This document shows, piece after piece, positions 6,466 through 10,135 of a DNA stretch of 64,000 bases. The stretch is from sequence record PP526765; one strand, given 5' to 3'. Position 1 is the first letter of the stretch. Each line of letters starts with the position of its first letter. A program made the position numbers and the translations under genes. The stretch comes from Escherichia phage HK3. The notes below the pieces were generated by a model. It worked only from the letters and a program-made list of their open reading frames with translations, had not been told where the DNA came from and ran no database searches.

Positions 6466-6837
6466 ATGAAAAACAGAACAAACAAAGGCCAGTTTAAAAA
6501 AGGCCAGTCTGGAAACCCATCTGGAAGACCAAAAGGCTCTCGTAACAAAAGCTCACTTGTAAAAGCTCAACTGACCATTGATAATTCTGCTGAGTTCGCT
6601 GCAAAGCTGTTTGAGGCGATTGTTACAAGGGACGCGGCTAAGCTTGCAGAGTTCGGTTTGACGACTGACGATGTAAACCTGAAGTCAATGATGGAAGCTG
6701 GTAAAACTATCATGACCCACTCAGCAGGTGAGATGAAAGCCATTGCAGCAGACACTAAGAAGACTCCTGATAATGGTGGTCAACAACAGACAGATAACAA
6801 ACCAACGTTCTCTGCTGTAGCGACTCTCAAAAAATAA
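6466..6837 (+). CDS. hypothetical protein with GNPxGRPKG motif
   Basis: 123 aa; N-terminal GNPSGRPKGSRN motif I recall from a phage/plasmid family of unknown function. Confidence 0.5.
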   Translation: MKNRTNKGQFKKGQSGNPSGRPKGSRNKSSLVKAQLTIDNSAEFAAKLFEAIVTRDAAKLAEFGLTTDDVNLKSMMEAGKTIMTHSAGEMKAIAADTKKTPDNGGQQQTDNKPTFSAVATLKK

Positions 6838-6916: not shown

Positions 6917-8332
6917 ATGAGCAAGTTATTTAAACATGCGCACCTTCATGCAGGTCGAACTGAAAATGGTGCTGTAAACCATACTTCATCAATGTCTGCT
7001 CTGGTAGACTTCTACAAAGCCGCTGGTTCAAGCCGTAGCAATGTAGAAATCTTACCAGACCTGTTCTACAAAGCTTTGCGTGAGGATGTTGATGTTGCAG
7101 TTCGTATTTTACTGCATATGCGAGATGTACGAGAAGGTATGGGCGAGCGTAAAGCTTTCCGAACTGTTTTGCTTCAAGCGATTGAAGATAAGGTTTTAGA
7201 ACCTACACAGGTTCTTCGCATTATGGATAAGATTGCAGAACTTGGTCGTTTTGATGACTTCAAAATCTTTGTAGGTACTCGTTTTGAGACAGACGCCTTC
7301 AAACATTTAGAAGCAGCATTACTAGACCCTGCAACAGCAGGTTTAGCAGCTAAGTGGTTGCCACGAGTAAAACCACGCCACAAACAGTTTGTAAAACGTT
7401 TCTGCAAGTTTGCAAACTTAAGTGAGAAGGAGTATCGCACACTGTTGTCTGCACTATCTGATACGGTTGAGCAAAAAATCTCTGCTAATGAGTTTGGTAA
7501 GATTGACTACAGCAAGATTCCTTCACTAGCTGCTGCACGTTACCAAAAACTCTTTAACCGTAAAGATGGTGAACGTTACAAAGCTTACATCGAGTCGCTC
7601 TCAAAGGGTGAGGCTAAGATTAATGCTGGTGCTGTTTACCCATACGATGTGATTAAATCTATTAAGTATGGTAATGCAGATGTTGCTAATGAGCAGTGGA
7701 AAGCACTTCCAAACTGGATGGCAGAAGGTGAAAACATCTTGTGTATGACTGATGTTTCAAGCTCAATGTCTTGGGTGAATCTTGGTTCAATCACTGCCCT
7801 TGATATTGGTGTATCACTTGCTTTGTATGTAGCAGAACGCAATACTGGTTGCTTTAAAGATGAGTTAATGGTTTACTCAACAAACCCTCACTTCATTGAA
7901 CTGAGTGGTGATTTACGAAACCGTCATCGTCAGGTGATGCGTCACGTTGAATATGGCTCAACTAACTTACAAGCAGCTTTTGACCGTATTCTTGAAATAG
8001 GTAAGAGAAACAACTTGACTCAGAAAGATATGCCAAGTAAGCTTATTATCTTCTCTGATATGGAGTTTAATCAGGTTGATGGTGCAAATGGTCATACAAA
8101 CTTTGAAGCAATTCAGAGTAAGTACAAAAAAGCCGGATACGAAATGCCACAACTAGTATTCTGGTACTTAGCAAACCGTAATGGTACTTGCGAAGTATCT
8201 GTTAAGGATAATGGTGTAGCAATGGTATCAGGGTTCTCTCCAGCCACTTTAAAAGCTCTACTTGGTGGTGAGAAGTTTGACCCAATCAGCGTAATGCTCA
8301 AAGCAGTAATGATTGACCGTTATATCTGGTAA
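6917..8332 (+). CDS. vWA-domain protein with Ro60-like architecture (alpha-helical N-domain + C-terminal vWA)
   Basis: 471 aa; MIDAS-like DVSSSMS ... GSTN ... IIFSDME in C-terminal half; helical N-terminal about 270 aa; lies immediately upstream of tRNA array. Confidence 0.6.
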   Translation: MSKLFKHAHLHAGRTENGAVNHTSSMSALVDFYKAAGSSRSNVEILPDLFYKALREDVDVAVRILLHMRDVREGMGERKAFRTVLLQAIEDKVLEPTQVLRIMDKIAELGRFDDFKIFVGTRFETDAFKHLEAALLDPATAGLAAKWLPRVKPRHKQFVKRFCKFANLSEKEYRTLLSALSDTVEQKISANEFGKIDYSKIPSLAAARYQKLFNRKDGERYKAYIESLSKGEAKINAGAVYPYDVIKSIKYGNADVANEQWKALPNWMAEGENILCMTDVSSSMSWVNLGSITALDIGVSLALYVAERNTGCFKDELMVYSTNPHFIELSGDLRNRHRQVMRHVEYGSTNLQAAFDRILEIGKRNNLTQKDMPSKLIIFSDMEFNQVDGANGHTNFEAIQSKYKKAGYEMPQLVFWYLANRNGTCEVSVKDNGVAMVSGFSPATLKALLGGEKFDPISVMLKAVMIDRYIW

Positions 8333-8350: not shown

Positions 8351-8379
8351 TTGACAATGTGTTTGATACCCTTTAATAT
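8351..8379 (+). promoter_or_regulatory. sigma70-like promoter (TTGACA-17-TAATAT) for tRNA array
   Basis: consensus -35 and near-consensus -10 with 17-nt spacer; flanked by inverted repeat AAGGGTAT / ATACCCTT. Confidence 0.65.
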
Positions 8380-8442
8380 GTTCTACATAGAAACGAGATG
8401 AGAGCTTTTCTAAGATACTGAAAAATATTTTAAAAAAGTTCT

Positions 8443-8471
8443 TGACAACCACTAAAAAATAATGTTAAAGT
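8443..8471 (+). promoter_or_regulatory. sigma70-like promoter (TTGACA-17-TAAAGT)
   Basis: TTGACA 8443-8448, TAAAGT 8466-8471; overlapping hairpin CCACT...AGTGG. Confidence 0.5.
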
Positions 8472-8497
8472 GGTTACATAGAGTTTGAAAAGTTTAT

Positions 8498-8574
8498 CTC
8501 TGTTTAGCTCAGCTTGGTAGAGCGTTCCGTTTGGGGCGGTAAGGCCGGAGGTTCAAGTCCTCCAACAGAGACCA
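8498..8574 (+). tRNA. tRNA-Pro (anticodon UGG)
   Basis: manual fold: acceptor CTCTGTT/AACAGAG, D-loop AGCTTGGTA, anticodon loop TTTGGGG, T-arm GGAGG-TTCAAGT-CCTCC, encoded CCA. Confidence 0.75.
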
Positions 8575-8581
8575 AATTAAT

Positions 8582-8659
8582 GTTCCAGTAGACAAAATGG
8601 TATAGTCACCACTCTTTCAAAGTGGATATTTGAGGGTTCAAATCCCTTCTGGAACGCCA
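8582..8659 (+). tRNA. tRNA-Glu (anticodon UUC)
   Basis: manual fold: acceptor GTTCCAG/CTGGAAC, anticodon stem CCACT/AGTGG loop CTTTCAA, T-loop TTCAAAT, CCA. Confidence 0.7.
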
Positions 8660-8666
8660 GTTTTGA

Positions 8667-8740
8667 CAGAAGACCAATTACAGCAAACTTAATCTTATTC
8701 ATCTGAAGGTAAATCGGACAAAGAAGAGATTTGGTCTGGT
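8667..8740 (+). ncRNA. inter-tRNA structured element a (conserved terminal helix)
   Basis: 5' CAGAAGACCAATTACAGCAA ... 3' TTGGTCTGG; terminal 7-bp helix AGACCAA/TTGGTCT. Confidence 0.45.
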
Positions 8741-8750
8741 CATTAAGAAT

Positions 8751-8827
8751 TGCGGGTATAGAGAAAGGGCGTCTCACATGTCTCATTAGCATGGTATCGG
8801 CAGGTTCGACTCCTGCACCCGCCTCCA
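8751..8827 (+). tRNA. tRNA-Met (anticodon CAU; 1:72 mismatch)
   Basis: manual fold: anticodon stem CATGT/GCATG loop CTCATTA, T-arm GCAGG-TTCGACT-CCTGC, acceptor TGCGGGT/ACCCGCC with U1xC72 mismatch, CCA. Confidence 0.6.
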
Positions 8828-8833
8828 AATTTA

Positions 8834-8897
8834 CAGAAGACCGTTTACAGCAATATTTATTAAATTTTTAGCGGAAAAATTGAAAGATACGGTCTGG
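8834..8897 (+). ncRNA. inter-tRNA structured element b
   Basis: 5' CAGAAGACCGTTTACAGCAA ... 3' ACGGTCTGG; helix AGACCGT/ACGGTCT (compensatory to element a); internal hairpin AATTTTT-AGCGG-AAAAATT. Confidence 0.45.
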
Positions 8898-8910
8898 TAA
8901 TACTAAACAT

Positions 8911-8987
8911 GGTTAGGAAGCACATAAGGTATGTGCGGTCGCCTGTTAAGCGAATGGCACAGGGTTCGAATCCCTGACTAACCGCCA
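8911..8987 (+). tRNA. tRNA-Asn (anticodon GUU)
   Basis: manual fold: acceptor GGTTAGG/ACTAACC, anticodon loop CTGTTAA, T-arm CAGGG-TTCGAAT-CCCTG, CCA. Confidence 0.7.
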
Positions 8988-9058
8988 AATTTAGGAGAGA
9001 AGCGATTGCTCACCGATTTGTAAGGTGCAAGTCCTTAGCCTGAATAGAATAATAAAAT

Positions 9059-9145
9059 GTGTCGTTATCCCGTAGATGGTAGCGGTGGGGACTGTAAATC
9101 CCTTGTCATTGAGACTCGGTAGGTTCGACTCCTACACGGCACACC
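9059..9145 (+). tRNA. tRNA-Tyr (anticodon GUA), long variable arm
   Basis: manual fold: acceptor GTGTCGT/ACGGCAC, anticodon stem GGGGA/TCCCT loop CTGTAAA, 15-nt variable arm, T-arm GTAGG-TTCGACT-CCTAC, CCA. Confidence 0.7.
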
Positions 9146-9207
9146 AATTTTGAGAGGGCTATTTAGCCCCTCCCTTAAAGAGTTCTTACGAGTACCCTTT
9201 AAAGGAG

Positions 9208-9281
9208 CAGAAGACCAAATACAGCAAGTTACTTAAAATTTCAAGCCAATTCAATTTTGAAAAATTTAAAACTTGGTCTGG
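9208..9281 (+). ncRNA. inter-tRNA structured element c
   Basis: 5' CAGAAGACCAAATACAGCAA ... 3' TTGGTCTGG; same terminal helix. Confidence 0.45.
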
Positions 9282-9294
9282 CTCAACAAATTTA

Positions 9295-9425
9295 CAGAAG
9301 ACCGTTTACAGCAAAACTTAAACAATCTATTTCTCGGTAAAGAAAAGGTGAAGGTTCGATTCCTTCACTCGGCAGATGTCGAGTTGGTGTAATGGTAGCA
9401 CTTAAGATGATAAACAACGGTCTGG
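9295..9425 (+). ncRNA. candidate Y-RNA-like (YrlA-like) RNA: terminal helix enclosing circularly permuted tRNA-like domain
   Basis: 5' CAGAAGACCGTTTACAGCAA ... 3' ACGGTCTGG helix; inside: T-arm GTGAAGG-TTCGATT-CCTTCAC (9348-9368), closed acceptor-like hairpin ACTCGGC-AGAT-GTCGAGT (9367-9384), D-arm GTGT-AATGGTA-GCAC (9387-9401); no anticodon arm. Confidence 0.5.
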
Positions 9426-9576
9426 TAATTATCTTTGCAGTAGCTTATGTGGCTAATTATATCGTCCCATGAGTGCCGATGAATTTCCTTAGCATGATTC
9501 TAGATTAGCTTAATAGGAAATGACTCTACAGACCCTTTAGCAAGGTCTGCGTAGGTTACTGCAAAGATAATTTAAT

Positions 9577-9652
9577 AGAAGTGTAGCAGAATGGTGATGC
9601 GGCAGACTTTTAATCTGATAGGTGATGGGTTCGAATCCCTCCACTTCTACCA
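9577..9652 (+). tRNA. tRNA-Lys (anticodon UUU)
   Basis: manual fold: acceptor AGAAGTG/CACTTCT, anticodon stem GCAGA/TCTGA loop CTTTTAA, CCA; T-stem weak (3 bp); homologous to Lys-CUU gene with compensatory changes. Confidence 0.6.
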
Positions 9653-9656
9653 ATAT

Positions 9657-9733
9657 GGTTCAGTCGCAGATAAGGTAATGCAGGGGTCTCATAAGCCCTA
9701 TGAATGTGGGTTCGATTCCCATCTGAGCCTCCA
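9657..9733 (+). tRNA. tRNA with anticodon CAU (Met or Ile-lysidine type)
   Basis: manual fold: acceptor GGTTCAG/CTGAGCC, anticodon stem GGGGT/GCCCT loop CTCATAA, T-arm GTGGG-TTCGATT-CCCAT, CCA. Confidence 0.65.
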
Positions 9734-9735
9734 AT

Positions 9736-9811
9736 GCTGTGAAAGCACATATGGATGTGCATTCGGCTGATAACCGAAAGGAAGAAGGTTCGAATCCTTC
9801 TCACAGTACCA
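9736..9811 (+). tRNA. tRNA-Ile (anticodon GAU)
   Basis: manual fold: acceptor GCTGTGA/TCACAGT, D-arm GCAC-ATATGGAT-GTGC, anticodon stem TTCGG/CCGAA loop CTGATAA, T-arm GAAGG-TTCGAAT-CCTTC, CCA. Confidence 0.8.
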
Positions 9812-9826
9812 ATTTCAATAAAGTTG

Positions 9827-9855
9827 TTGACATTGAGATGTGACCACTTTATAGT
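9827..9855 (+). promoter_or_regulatory. sigma70-like promoter (TTGACA-17-TATAGT) internal to tRNA region
   Basis: TTGACA 9827-9832, TATAGT 9850-9855. Confidence 0.6.
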
Positions 9856-10058
9856 AACCTTAGTTTTCGTTGCGTAGCGTCTATTTTGCAAATTTAAAAT
9901 AAATGCAAACGACAATGTTTTTCTGGCAGTAGCTTGATAGGCTAAACACCAGTGAGGTCTTCCAATCCCTCATCAAAGAATTTGGCGTACTAGCCCACGG
10001 TATGATTAATAAGGTGGGCATCTTTAAGGGTTTTTTAAGAGAGTCTTTAAAGATTAAT

Positions 10059-10135
10059 GCACCCTTAGTTCAACTGGACAGAACAAATGACTTCTAATCA
10101 TTAGGTTACAGGTTCGAATCCTGTAGGGTGTGCCA
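10059..10135 (+). tRNA. tRNA-Arg (anticodon UCU)
   Basis: manual fold: acceptor GCACCCT/AGGGTGT, D-arm GTTC-AACTGGACA-GAAC, anticodon stem AATGA/TCATT loop CTTCTAA, T-arm ACAGG-TTCGAAT-CCTGT, CCA. Confidence 0.8.

What the first reader, a model, noticed from the sequence alone, without database searches (positions are those of the whole stretch)
9295..9425. Candidate Y-RNA-like (YrlA-type) RNA: terminal helix enclosing a circularly permuted tRNA-like domain
Between tRNA-Tyr and tRNA-Lys lies a 131-nt element whose ends (AGACCGT / ACGGTCT) pair. Inside, in this order, are a canonical T-arm (GTGAAGG-TTCGATT-CCTTCAC), an acceptor-like helix closed by a tetraloop (ACTCGGC-AGAT-GTCGAGT) and a D-arm (GTGT-AATGGTA-GCAC), with no anticodon arm. 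That is the architecture described for bacterial Y RNAs (YrlA): a tRNA mimic whose free ends form the Ro60-binding stem. A gene for a vWA protein with Ro60-like domain order sits 1 kb upstream. I know of no report of this in a phage of this type.
Basis: partly seen in the sequence, partly recalled or inferred. Interest (0 to 1): 0.85.

Follow-up and report, generated by a model that had tools for sequence, protein, structure and literature searches.

The report
Phage Y-like RNAs beside Ro60-like gene
Inside the tRNA gene cluster of a Felix O1-type phage lies a small RNA that folds like a rearranged tRNA closed by a conserved stem; the same kind of RNA sits beside a Ro60-like protein gene in very different phages, pointing to a widespread phage version of the Ro60/Y-RNA particle whose RNA partner I found described nowhere.

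Summary
Window 9295-9427 (+) folds into a terminal helix (9299-9305 / 9417-9423) that encloses a V hairpin, a canonical T arm, a 7-bp acceptor-like hairpin and a D arm, with no anticodon arm. ARAGORN calls no tRNA there.

The structure covaries strongly. In 17 long copies from enterobacterial, Vibrio, Klebsiella, Mycobacterium and Enterococcus phages, 97.9% of cells are paired and 21 of 23 pairs show compensatory changes.

The protein encoded at 6917-8332 carries Pfam DUF2828 + DUF7788, not TROVE. Its AlphaFold model nevertheless matches Ro60/Rsr over its full length.

A covariance model found this RNA, and shorter hairpins with the same closing helix plus a UNCAGCAA motif, beside homologous genes. 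It hit 50 of 67 distant viral loci and 6 of 7 cultured phage loci examined. All 85 hits lay on the gene's strand, and many of these loci hold no tRNA. The window itself holds four such RNAs.

The family differs from canonical YrlA. It lacks the GNCGAA motif, and the window copy has no Rfam YrlA hit. Relatives score only 34-38 bits against a threshold of 69.

A 2024 preprint noted that the Bas63 orthologue gp130 is Ro60-like and guessed at Y RNAs, but did not find them.

Verdict: a real RNA family and a new variant of the Ro60/Y-RNA kind. Binding and expression remain untested.

The parts
6917..8332 (+). Gene for a 471-aa Ro60-like protein (helical-repeat ring plus C-terminal vWA domain with MIDAS motif). 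It is the orthologue of Bas63 gp130 and Felix O1 ORF86.
   Evidence: Pfam finds DUF2828 + DUF7788 and no TROVE hit. PHROG 850 is named 'RNA-binding protein'. The AF2 model has pLDDT 87. The top six Foldseek PDB hits are all Ro60/Rsr over the full length. D279, S281, S283, T349 and D381 are invariant.
8351..8471 (+). Two sigma-70-like promoters (8351-8379 and 8442-8471) that precede the tRNA/small-RNA array. No terminator-like site lies on the + strand before the next promoter at 9827.
   Evidence: Consensus scan. Co-transcription is an inference.
8667..8741 (+). Short module RNA a, between tRNA-Glu and tRNA-Met: CAGAAGACCAA-UUACAGCAA...UUGGUCUGG. It has no tRNA-like domain (YrlB-like).
   Evidence: R1 scores 36.6 bits and R2 36.8 bits. 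Sequence, fold.
8834..8899 (+). Short module RNA b, between tRNA-Met and tRNA-Asn: CAGAAGACCGU-UUACAGCAA...ACGGUCUGG.
   Evidence: R1 scores 45.1 bits and R2 39.6 bits. Sequence, fold.
9208..9283 (+). Short module RNA c (E1), immediately upstream of the finding: CAGAAGACCAA-AUACAGCAA...UUGGUCUGG.
   Evidence: R2 scores 32.5 bits. It is conserved in 12 Ounavirinae. Fold.
9295..9427 (+). The finding (E2): a long module RNA whose terminal helix and UUACAGCAA motif enclose a circularly permuted tRNA-like domain.
   Evidence: R1 scores 150.8 bits and R2 107.4 bits. MFE fold. Covariation.
9299..9305 (+). 5' strand of the terminal helix (AGACCGU). It pairs with 9417-9423.
   Evidence: All 7 pairs covary across the family. 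G-U variants occur in Moogle and Shy.
9306..9314 (+). Conserved single-stranded motif UUACAGCAA. This is the proposed protein-contact motif and the positional counterpart of YrlA's GNCGAA.
   Evidence: C.GCA is invariant, the A between C and G is present in 76 of 80 and the last A in 74 of 80 family sequences. The motif always sits at a fixed distance from the helix start. The Rfam YrlA alignment places CAGCAAA on CGGCGAA.
9330..9345 (+). V (variable-arm-like) hairpin: UUUCU-CGGUAA-AGAAA.
   Evidence: MFE folds. It is conserved in Felix- and SUSP-type phages; its register differs in Moogle.
9350..9366 (+). T arm: GAAGG-UUCGAUU-CCUUC.
   Evidence: 4 of 5 pairs covary across the family.
9367..9384 (+). 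Acceptor-like 7-bp hairpin: ACUCGGC-AGAU-GUCGAGU.
   Evidence: Three compensatory versions occur within Ounavirinae. All 7 pairs covary in the family.
9387..9401 (+). D arm: GUGU-AAUGGUA-GCAC, with G18/G19-like GG in the loop.
9417..9423 (+). 3' strand of the terminal helix (ACGGUCU), followed by a conserved G.
9424..9577 (+). E3, an adjacent ~150-nt element with a 23-bp closing stem. Its inner hairpin AGACC[CUUUAGCAA]GGUCU looks like a minimal copy of the module. Whether it belongs to the system is uncertain.
   Evidence: Two sequence versions carry compensatory stem changes. MFE is -51.5 kcal/mol. Models R1 and R2 do not detect it.

Best explanation
Window 9295-9427 (+) encodes a phage Y-RNA-like non-coding RNA. 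It is the tRNA-mimic (YrlA-type) member of a set of four small RNAs in this window.

All four share one module: a ~7-bp helix formed by the RNA's two ends (A-AGR...YCU-G), followed on the 5' side by the single-stranded motif UNCAGCAA.

Shown here by computation:
- The RNA structure is real and under selection on the + strand.
- Its interior is a circularly permuted tRNA-like domain (V, T, acceptor-like, D; no anticodon arm) with canonical T- and D-loop sequences.
- The neighbouring 471-aa protein has the Ro60 fold.
- RNAs with this module lie beside homologues of that protein, on its strand, in phages of Proteobacteria, Firmicutes, Actinobacteria and Campylobacter.

Inferred by analogy with Ro60/Y RNA and Rsr/YrlA/YrlB:
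1. The RNAs are cut out of the polycistronic tRNA precursor that starts at the promoters at 8351/8442.
2. The shared end-helix plus UNCAGCAA is the docking site for the Ro60-like ring.
3. The variable interior is an effector module. In the long form this is a tRNA-shaped handle that recruits tRNA-recognising host factors. Candidates are modification enzymes, RNase P and CCA-adding enzyme where the acceptor-like stem has 7 bp, or an exoribonuclease such as PNPase as in the RYPER complex.
4. Through that handle the RNA would gate or tether the protein during RNA surveillance or counter-defence.
For: Structure: the MFE fold is. Within Ounavirinae there are three compensatory versions of the acceptor-like stem and + strand-only G-U changes. 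In the family alignment A6, 97.9% of cells pair, 21 of 23 pairs show double changes, and the covariation score is 0.98 against 0.24 shuffled and at most 0.18 slid (likewise A5).

Not a tRNA.

Protein: the top six Foldseek PDB hits are Ro60 (2i91, 9nfa), Rsr (2nvo) and phage phiLo Ro60 (9kop, 9l5y), with E of 1e-7 to 5e-6. The best PDB sequence hit of the family profile is Ro60's MIDAS region. The MIDAS residues are invariant.

Linkage:
- Model R2 gave 85 hits at E<=0.1 in 1.02 Mb, all on the gene's strand.
- 50 of 67 distant loci have a hit, 41 of them within 1 kb of the gene, and 50 of 81 hits lie within 500 nt.
- About half of the loci with hits hold no tRNA at all, including L027 with seven copies.
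- Hits also occur beside the gene in Klebsiella phi1_175008, Mycobacterium Whirlwind, Campylobacter F370, Staphylococcus BE02, Listeria WIL-1 and Enterococcus EfV12-phi1, and 6.2 kb from it, in the tRNA cluster, in Vibrio KVP40.

Motif: the CAGCA(A) core is essentially invariant at a fixed offset in 80 sequences.

Kinship with YrlA:
- R2 finds the Bxz1 YrlA next to a TROVE-type Ro gene.
- Rfam YrlA gives 34-38-bit hits to family members.
- Rfam YrlA aligns CAGCAAA with its CGGCGAA motif.

Literature:
- YrlA/YrlB architecture and the criterion of lying within 4 kb on the same strand (PMC4201824).
- Phage Ro60 binds phage Yrl RNAs and host PNPase (PMC12135203).
- Bas63 gp130 is Ro60-like and counters the Ppl defence (PMC11482910).
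Against: - There are no expression, end-mapping or binding data. The RNA-protein contact is inferred only from co-location and analogy.
- The canonical Rsr-binding motif GNCGAAN0-1G is absent.
- The window RNA gets no Rfam YrlA or Y_RNA hit even at E<=10.
- The protein has no Pfam TROVE match.
- gp130 alone, expressed from a plasmid or from T7, is enough to counter Ppl (PMC11482910). The RNAs are therefore not needed for that activity.
- One natural Felixounavirus (L014) has lost the 3' half of this RNA by fusion to tRNA-Lys, so it is dispensable at least there.
- 17 of 67 distant loci and Pseudomonas phage Milchi gave no hit.
- In KVP40, L025 and L054 the best long copy lies 3-8 kb from the gene, inside a tRNA cluster.
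- Alignments A5 and A6 were fitted to the model's structure, which inflates pairing somewhat.
Confidence: 0.75

Rival explanations
1. The elements are cis-acting parts of longer transcripts rather than free trans-acting RNAs. They would be operators or stability and processing signals that the Ro60-like protein, or an RNase, recognises in its own mRNA leader or trailer and in the tRNA precursor, for example for autoregulation or to order precursor cleavage.
For: Many copies end 12-60 nt before the start codon or begin 20-50 nt after the stop codon of the gene. In the window they are interleaved with tRNAs in one promoter-to-promoter unit with no terminator. E3 has a 23-bp stem that would suit RNase III.
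Against: - There are up to seven tandem copies per locus (L027), which is more than an operator needs.
- In the window the copies lie 330-1000 nt beyond the gene and behind two promoters.
- An elaborate, covarying tRNA-like domain is not expected of a simple operator.
- Half of the loci have no tRNA to process.
- Known YrlA/YrlB are likewise cut from a precursor next to rsr and are still free RNAs (PMC4201824).
Confidence: 0.12
2. The tRNA-like RNA works on its own as a decoy or substrate mimic for host tRNA-targeting enzymes or defences, and is independent of the Ro60-like protein. Under this reading the shared end module is only a processing or stability signal, and the linkage to the gene reflects a common 'tRNA biology' neighbourhood.
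For: The element sits in a 25-tRNA array. The gene is often next to tRNA or tmRNA genes. Some acceptor-like loops encode N-CCA (Moogle/HP1, L048, L087). gp130 acts without the RNAs against Ppl.
Against: The module without any tRNA-like part is the commonest form, and it hugs the gene in loci with no tRNA. Strand and distance linkage to the gene holds across phages of four bacterial phyla. The conserved motif occupies the same place as the Rsr-binding motif of YrlA.
Confidence: 0.1
3. The element is a decayed or rearranged tRNA gene (a dimeric-tRNA remnant or a permuted tRNA gene), or a small minus-strand protein gene as annotated in several relatives, with no RNA function of its own.
For: It has tRNA-like T and D arms inside a tRNA cluster. 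Minus-strand CDSs are annotated over it in Felix O1 (ORF94), Bas63 (0137/0138), ESh22 and HP1. A 41-aa minus-strand ORF exists at 9292-9417.
Against: - The T-side and D-side acceptor strands pair with each other and covary. Neighbouring tRNAs would not do this.
- There is no anticodon arm, and ARAGORN and Rfam call no tRNA.
- The structure is conserved at 26-47% protein divergence, so it is not a pseudogene.
- Indels between relatives are 1, 4, 5, 6 and 9 nt, and the substitutions preserve pairing rather than a reading frame.
- The G-U changes fit only the + strand.
Confidence: 0.03

Closest known systems
Bacterial and mycobacteriophage YrlA (Rfam RF02553; Chen et al. 2014, PMC4201824)
   Same: - The stem is formed by the 5' and 3' ends.
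- The interior is a permuted tRNA-like domain in the order V, T, acceptor-like stem-loop, D, with canonical T- and D-loop sequences.
- It is encoded near a Ro60-type protein gene and on the same strand, often with a shorter companion RNA.
- Some copies have a 7-bp acceptor-like stem followed by N-CCA, as in M. smegmatis YrlA, which is cut by RNase P and receives CCA.
- Cross-detection works both ways at sub-threshold level.
   Different: - The conserved 5' motif is UNCAGCAA, not GNCGAAN0-1G.
- The window copy gets no Rfam YrlA hit at E<=10, and relatives score 34-38 bits against a threshold of 69.
- The partner protein is DUF2828 + DUF7788, not TROVE + vWA_Ro60.
- In this phage the RNAs are embedded in a tRNA array and occur in four copies.
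YrlB (Salmonella, M. smegmatis) and Yrl1/Yrl2 of Thermus phage phiLo (PMC12135203)
   Same: These are short Y-like RNAs that keep the protein-binding stem but lack a full tRNA-like domain, and they are encoded in tandem next to the Ro60 gene. The phiLo pair shows that a phage Ro60 binds phage-encoded Y-like RNAs and host PNPase. The window's 8667-8741, 8834-8899 and 9208-9283 elements look like this type.
   Different: phiLo and the bacterial RNAs carry a CGAA motif in a bulged stem, and their protein is a sequence-recognisable TROVE Ro60. Here the motif is CAGCAA and no binding has been tested.
Bas63 (Felixounavirus JohannRWettstein) gp130, PhageMaP preprint (PMC11482910)
   Same: It is the direct orthologue of window 6917-8332. 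The authors noted its structural similarity to Ro60 and its position upstream of the tRNA genes, suggested that Y RNAs might exist there, and showed that gp130 counters the Ppl defence.
   Different: They proposed that some annotated tRNA genes might be the Y RNAs. The candidates found here are unannotated elements between the tRNAs (Bas63 MZ501086.1 82068-82142, 82235-82300, 82690-82765, 82777-82910). Two of them lie under minus-strand 'hypothetical protein' CDSs. gp130 worked without them in T7.
Metazoan Y RNAs (Rfam RF00019) with Ro60
   Same: The general plan is the same: the ends pair to form the protein-binding stem, conserved bases lie mainly on the 5' strand, and a variable interior acts as an effector module. 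The partner is a ring-shaped protein with a vWA domain.
   Different: Metazoan Y RNAs have no tRNA-like domain, a different binding motif (GGUCCGA with a bulged helix), and no Rfam match here.
Small stable RNAs co-transcribed with phage T4 tRNAs (species 1 and 2 / RNAs C and D). Recalled from memory, not tested here.
   Same: They are small non-tRNA RNAs embedded in a phage tRNA cluster and released by tRNA-processing enzymes. Their function is unknown.
   Different: No Ro60-like partner is known for them. I did not compare the sequences, so this is a lead only.

Membership tests
YrlA (Y RNA-like, Rfam RF02553; Chen et al. 2014) | tRNA-like domain with stem-loops in the order V, T, acceptor-like (AS), D, enclosed by a stem formed from the RNA's ends | tested here: met
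   MFE fold. The same architecture appears in all variants. Covariation of the terminal, T, AS and D helices is shown.
YrlA (Y RNA-like, Rfam RF02553; Chen et al. 2014) | Encoded within about 4 kb of the Ro60-type gene and on the same strand | tested here: met
   The window RNA starts 963 nt downstream of 6917-8332 on the same strand. Across the family, all 85 hits are on the gene's strand and 41 of 67 loci have one within 1 kb.
YrlA (Y RNA-like, Rfam RF02553; Chen et al. 2014) | GNCGAAN0-1G motif near the 5' end (the proposed Rsr contact) | tested here: not met
   The sequence at 9295-9330 has no CGAA. The conserved motif is UUACAGCAA. It occupies the equivalent position in the Rfam alignment.
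YrlA (Y RNA-like, Rfam RF02553; Chen et al. 2014) | Scores at or above the Rfam gathering threshold (69 bits) | tested here: not met
   There is no RF02553 hit at E<=10 on window 9100-9600. Relatives score 34-38 bits. As a control, the genuine Bxz1 YrlA scores 32.5 bits.
YrlA (Y RNA-like, Rfam RF02553; Chen et al. 2014) | A discrete stable RNA that is bound by the Ro60 orthologue in vivo and carries tRNA-type modifications or RNase P/CCA processing | not testable with these tools
   This needs RNA sequencing or northern blots, immunoprecipitation and modification mapping.
Ro60/Rsr protein family (for the partner gene 6917-8332) | Ring of helical (HEAT-like) repeats followed by a vWA domain | tested here: met
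   AF2 model with pLDDT 87 and pTM 0.87. The top six Foldseek hits are Ro60/Rsr/phiLo Ro60 aligned over 511-539 columns, TM up to 0.66.
Ro60/Rsr protein family (for the partner gene 6917-8332) | MIDAS metal site in the vWA domain (DxSxS...T...D) | tested here: met
   D279, S281, S283, T349 and D381 are invariant in 30 homologues. DVSGSM aligns with Ro60's DVSASM.
Ro60/Rsr protein family (for the partner gene 6917-8332) | Sequence signature: Pfam TROVE (PF05731) plus vWA_Ro60 (PF25045) | tested here: not met
   Pfam gives DUF2828 + DUF7788 only. The control Bxz1 gp220 gives TROVE + vWA_Ro60. phmmer against PDB finds no Ro60, and the family profile finds it only weakly (E 0.15).
Canonical tRNA | Cloverleaf with an anticodon arm and an acceptor stem made from the two free ends | tested here: not met
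   ARAGORN makes no call at 9147-9576. The Rfam tRNA model matches only positions 43-63, at 14.9 bits. No family member is called as a tRNA.
Circularly permuted tRNA genes (Cyanidioschyzon type; from general knowledge) | The 3' half precedes the 5' half, yet all four arms including the anticodon arm are present, so that processing yields a normal tRNA | tested here: not met
   There is no anticodon stem-loop. 14-20 nt of unpaired, poorly conserved sequence separate the D and V arms from the terminal helix. The same terminal module encloses non-tRNA interiors in paralogues.
Metazoan Y RNA (Rfam RF00019) | Match to the family model, with a bulged Ro-binding helix containing GGUCCGA | tested here: not met
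   No hit at E<=10, and the motif is absent.

The most novel reading that the evidence does not exclude
The DUF2828-type Ro60-like protein and these RNAs may form a pan-phage ribonucleoprotein system. The gene is present in at least 709 sequenced phages, including Felix O1, KVP40, A511/P100-like Listeria phages, Campylobacter, Staphylococcus, Enterococcus and cluster L mycobacteriophages.

In this reading one universal docking module (the end helix plus UNCAGCAA) presents interchangeable cargo domains:
- nothing;
- a permuted tRNA mimic;
- a non-permuted tRNA body without an acceptor stem;
- CCA-bearing acceptor mimics.

The particle would use tRNA mimicry to hijack host tRNA- or RNA-decay machinery, or to blunt RNA/tRNA-directed immunity such as Ppl. 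That would make it a new class of RNA-guided or RNA-scaffolded anti-defence factor.
Probability: 0.4. Interest if true: 0.88.

Novelty: new variant of a known kind. Interest (0 to 1): 0.78.

Why it matters
Ro60/Y-RNA particles are known from animals, about 5% of bacteria and a few phages with sequence-recognisable TROVE proteins. Their tRNA-like module is still functionally unexplained.

This finding supplies the missing RNA partners for a much larger, sequence-divergent Ro60-like family (DUF2828) that occurs in hundreds of cultured phages of Gram-negative, Gram-positive and actinobacterial hosts, several of them classic model or therapy phages.

It gives a simple, testable definition of the family: an end helix plus UNCAGCAA. 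It shows natural 'cargo swapping' on one scaffold. It also connects to a published phenotype, because the Bas63 orthologue counters the Ppl defence.

Practical consequences:
- Unannotated gaps and spurious small CDSs in many phage genomes can be re-annotated.
- The role of tRNA mimicry in Y RNAs becomes testable in tractable phage-host pairs.

Tried and rejected
- Rfam at gathering and at E<=10 gave nothing but tRNAs and chance miRNA or snoRNA matches at the locus.
- ARAGORN called no tRNA there.
- phmmer of the protein against PDB found no Ro60. NCBIfam gave nothing. A literature search for DUF2828 returned only plant and tardigrade papers.
- My first RNAalifold run used wrongly cut locus coordinates that truncated the 3' ends and produced a partly wrong consensus. 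I replaced it with column-sliced sequences.
- An 'anticodon-stem-like' helix joining the tRNA-like domain to the terminal helix (CUUA/UAAG in the window) is not reproduced in SUSP1, KMM2 or Moogle folds. I left it out of the models.
- The V hairpin is real in Felix/SUSP types but sits in another register in Moogle, so I left it unpaired in the models.
- The supplementary tables of Chen et al. 2014 are not held. I used Bxz1 gp220 as the positive control instead.
- The hypothesis that the module is a tRNA-spacer processing signal was rejected, because about half of the loci with hits contain no tRNA.
- Minus-strand coding was rejected on indel lengths and strand-specific G-U pairs.
- The paper on 10,006 candidate viral structured RNAs (PMC10690425) does not mention Ro60, Y RNA or TROVE.
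Full report
**Source and setting**

The window is a Felix O1-like phage (Felixounavirus, Ounavirinae). The region 8400-10100 is 92-98% identical to many such phages. ARAGORN finds 25 tRNA genes on the + strand between 8498 and 13500. The finding lies in the 430-nt gap between tRNA-Tyr (9059-9146) and tRNA-Lys (9577-9652).

**The observation**

The terminal helix is AGACCGU 9299-9305 with ACGGUCU 9417-9423. Inside it, in order, are:
- a V hairpin (9330-9345);
- a T arm (GAAGG-UUCGAUU-CCUUC, 9350-9366);
- a 7-bp acceptor-like hairpin (ACUCGGC-AGAU-GUCGAGU, 9367-9384);
- UG;
- a D arm (GUGU-AAUGGUA-GCAC, 9387-9401).

RNAfold reproduces exactly this arrangement (-34.2 kcal/mol, z = -2.4). There is no anticodon arm. 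ARAGORN and Rfam call no tRNA, and no Rfam family (including YrlA and Y_RNA) matches at E<=10.

**Conservation within Ounavirinae**

I aligned the whole tRNA-Asp/Tyr to tRNA-Lys interval from 12 phages of three genera, Felixounavirus, Suspvirus and Mooglevirus.
- The T and D arms are almost invariant.
- The acceptor-like stem occurs in three different sequences that all pair: UCGGC/GUCGA, CACGU/GCGUG and CCCUUC/GAAGGG.
- Single changes in the terminal helix and T stem give G-U pairs (Moogle, Shy, Felix O1). On the other strand these would be C-A mismatches.
- Indels are of 1, 4, 5, 6 and 9 nt. This rules out the small minus-strand ORFs that several records annotate over this stretch.
- In Moogle and HP1 the acceptor-like loop reads G-CCA-AACA, that is, a discriminator base plus CCA.

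The same alignment showed that the interval holds three consecutive structured elements:
- E1 (9208-9283);
- the finding, E2 (9295-9427);
- E3 (9424-9577).

E1 and E2 begin and end with nearly the same sequences: CAGAAGACC(AA/GU)(A/U)UACAGCAA ... (UU/AC)GGUCUGG.

**The protein**

ORF 6917-8332 (471 aa) matches Pfam DUF2828 + DUF7788 (vWA) and not TROVE. PHROG 850 calls it 'RNA-binding protein'.

Sequence searches barely see Ro60. phmmer against PDB finds nothing. A profile of 30 homologues finds Ro60's MIDAS region as its best hit, but only at E = 0.15.

An AlphaFold2 model built on that alignment is confident (pLDDT 87, pTM 0.87). Its six best PDB matches are all Ro60-type proteins aligned end to end:
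- Xenopus Ro60 (2i91; E 1.3e-7, TM 0.66);
- human RO60 (9nfa);
- Deinococcus Rsr (2nvo);
- Thermus phage phiLo Ro60 (9kop, 9l5y).

All other matches are isolated vWA domains with E above 0.007. The MIDAS residues D279, S281, S283, T349 and D381 are invariant. The protein is therefore a structural Ro60 homologue that the TROVE sequence model does not reach.

**Linkage of RNA and protein across phages**

The protein family is large:
- 2836 clusters at E<=1e-3 among the candidates scored;
- at least 590 IMG/VR stretches;
- 709 cultured-phage records, from Escherichia, Salmonella, Vibrio, Klebsiella, Campylobacter, Mycobacterium, Listeria, Staphylococcus, Enterococcus, Bacillus and others.

Some of these records already annotate the gene as 'Ro-like RNA binding protein'.

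I built covariance model R1 from nine Ounavirinae copies of E2 (terminal helix, T, AS and D). I searched 80 viral loci fetched around homologues of the protein. It found full-length matches in phages whose protein is only 39-46% identical. In these matches the terminal and acceptor-like helices have entirely different sequences that still pair.

A second model, R2, built from those hits, gave 85 matches at E<=0.1 in 1.02 Mb, and every one lies on the strand of the gene.
- 50 of 67 distant loci have a match.
- 41 loci have a match within 1 kb of the gene.
- 50 of 81 matches lie within 500 nt.
- About half of the loci with matches contain no tRNA gene. This includes L027, which has seven copies upstream of the gene.

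The elements therefore follow the gene, not tRNAs.

In cultured phages the same holds:
- Klebsiella phi1_175008: four copies just downstream of the gene, two of them long (80.5 and 68.9 bits).
- Mycobacterium phage Whirlwind: 65.5 bits, 100 nt after gp55.
- Enterococcus EfV12-phi1: four copies in an unannotated 830-nt gap upstream.
- Staphylococcus BE02: three tandem short copies after the stop codon.
- Listeria WIL-1: three copies upstream.
- Campylobacter F370: one copy 18 nt upstream.

One locus is Vibrio phage KVP40, where the long copy lies between tRNA-Gln-1 and tRNA-Thr-1. Pseudomonas phage Milchi gave nothing.

**Anatomy of the family**

In 80 distinct sequences:
- the 5' end reads (A)A-G-R;
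- the 3' end reads Y-C-U-G;
- the motif U-(A/U)-C-A-G-C-A-A follows the 5' strand at a fixed offset, with C, G, C and the next A invariant and the last A in 74 of 80.

The helix between covaries completely.

Most members are short (45-75 nt) hairpins with an unstructured A/U-rich interior. A subset (100-160 nt) carries the permuted tRNA-like domain. One, L087 10325-10431, carries a tRNA body in the normal D-anticodon-T order without an acceptor stem.

For 17 long copies from very different phages, 97.9% of cells pair, against 60% after shuffling and 39-47% with slid partners. 21 of 23 pairs show changes on both sides, and the covariation score is 0.98 against 0.24 (similar for A5). These alignments were fitted to the model, so the absolute figures lean towards the structure, but the margins are wide.

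The whole 64-kb window contains exactly four matches, all within 8667-9427 on the + strand:
- 8667-8741;
- 8834-8899;
- 9208-9283;
- 9295-9427.

Two sigma-70-like promoters (8351, 8442) precede the array, and no terminator-like site follows before the next promoter at 9827. The RNAs are therefore probably cut from a polycistronic tRNA precursor. This is an inference.

**Comparison with the known kind**

Chen et al. 2014 (PMC4201824) define YrlA by four features:
- its position within 4 kb of the Ro60 orthologue, on the same strand;
- a 5' GNCGAAN0-1G motif;
- a tRNA-like domain with V, T, AS and D stem-loops;
- often a shorter companion, YrlB.

They also report that M. smegmatis YrlA, which has a 7-bp AS stem, is cut by RNase P and receives CCA.

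The window RNA meets the architectural and positional criteria. It fails the motif criterion and the Rfam score.

As a positive control I used mycobacteriophage Bxz1 gp220, which has Pfam TROVE + vWA_Ro60. Its upstream YrlA is found by Rfam RF02553 (32.5 bits, E 1.9e-4). My model R2 finds it too, but only through its tRNA-like part, model positions 30-116 (26 bits, E 0.003).

Conversely, RF02553 gives sub-threshold hits of 34-38 bits (gathering score 69) to family members in Whirlwind, L027 and the Klebsiella phage. Its alignment lays the family's CAGCAAA on YrlA's CGGCGAA.

The two RNA families therefore share the effector domain and the overall plan, but differ in the presumed protein-contact motif. 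This matches the deep divergence of the two protein families.

**Prior reports**

- Thermus phage phiLo provides experimental precedent that a phage Ro60 binds phage Y-like RNAs and host PNPase (PMC12135203).
- The PhageMaP preprint (PMC11482910) reported three things about Bas63 gp130, the orthologue of this window's protein. [quoted passage not shown] It did not identify the elements described here.
- I found no paper or Rfam family describing them.

**Mechanism: what is shown and what is inferred**

Shown by computation:
- a selected + strand RNA structure;
- tRNA-like T and D loops able to form a tRNA elbow;
- a Ro60 fold in the neighbouring protein;
- tight, strand-specific co-occurrence of the two.

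Inferred:
- the end helix plus UNCAGCAA docks the protein, as the Y-RNA stem docks Ro60;
- the interior recruits tRNA-recognising factors or an exoribonuclease;
- the particle acts in RNA surveillance or counter-defence.

Points against a strict dependence of protein on RNA:
- gp130 works alone against Ppl;
- a natural variant, L014, has lost the 3' half of E2 by fusion to tRNA-Lys.

**Verdict**

It is best described as a new variant of the Ro60/Y-RNA (YrlA/YrlB) kind, with a distinct binding module and a distinct, far more widespread phage protein partner.

I put 0.75 on the Y-RNA-like-partner explanation. The main rival is a cis-acting role in the gene's mRNA or the tRNA precursor (0.12). 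An autonomous tRNA decoy gets 0.10, and a tRNA relic or minus-strand ORF 0.03.

Noticed in passing
window 9424-9577: E3 is a ~150-nt element with a 23-bp closing stem (MFE -51.5 kcal/mol). It exists in two very different interior versions (Felix O1 type, and window/SUSP1/Moogle type) whose stems differ by compensatory changes. Its inner hairpin AGACC[CUUUAGCAA]GGUCU looks like a minimal copy of the family module. My models do not detect it, and its function is unknown.
   Followed up: partly
window 9147-9200, versus L001 3251-3327 and L092 3252-3329: This phage lacks the tRNA-Asp(GTC) gene that Felix O1, Bas63, Moogle and most relatives carry between tRNA-Tyr and the first small RNA. No tRNA-Asp is found anywhere in the window.
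   Followed up: partly
L014 10456-10579 (IMGVR_UViG_2706796742): A natural deletion variant. The 5' half of the tRNA-mimic RNA is fused at its T loop to the 3' end of tRNA-Lys(UUU). This removes the RNA's acceptor-like and D arms, E3 and most of tRNA-Lys, apparently by recombination between the two T arms.
   Followed up: partly
L096 5266-6455 (Listeria phage WIL-1): An RtcB RNA ligase gene lies 1.3 kb downstream of the Ro60-like gene. This echoes the Salmonella rsr-yrlBA-rtcBA RNA-repair operon.
   Followed up: no
L087 10325-10431: The same end module encloses a tRNA body in the normal order (D arm, anticodon-like arm with loop CUUUUAA, T arm) but with no acceptor stem. This is a second, non-permuted way of mounting a tRNA mimic on the scaffold.
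   Followed up: no
L023 10402-10526 (Moogle), L048 9943-10069, L087 10435-10535: In these copies the acceptor-like stem is followed directly by N-CCA (GCCA, ACCA, GCCA) inside the loop. This looks as if RNase P cleavage and trimming would expose a tRNA-like CCA end.
   Followed up: partly
L043, L056, L064/L067, L091 (13.8-15.6 kb in each locus): tmRNA genes lie 4-7 kb downstream of the Ro60-like gene in several metagenomic phages. In L056 and L064/L067 short module RNAs and tRNA-Met genes lie within 1.3-1.8 kb of the tmRNA.
   Followed up: no
L001 3473-3703 (Felix O1 ORF94); L092 3449-3723 (bas63_0137/0138); L006 667-813; L008 1056-1184: Small 'hypothetical protein' CDSs are annotated over the small RNAs E1, E2 or E3 in several GenBank records: on the minus strand in Felix O1 and Bas63, on the + strand in ESh22 and HP1. 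Given the RNA covariation and the frame-breaking indels, they are probably spurious.
   Followed up: partly
window 6466-6837: A 123-aa DUF5681 / phrog_4114 protein gene sits immediately upstream of the Ro60-like gene and is syntenic in Felix O1, Bas63, SUSP1 and Moogle. Whether it belongs to the same system is unknown.
   Followed up: no
window 9152-9172: A conserved G+C-rich hairpin, GAGAGGGC-UAUUU-AGCCCCUC, follows tRNA-Tyr/Asp in all 12 Ounavirinae aligned. It has no U tract, so it is not an obvious terminator.
   Followed up: no
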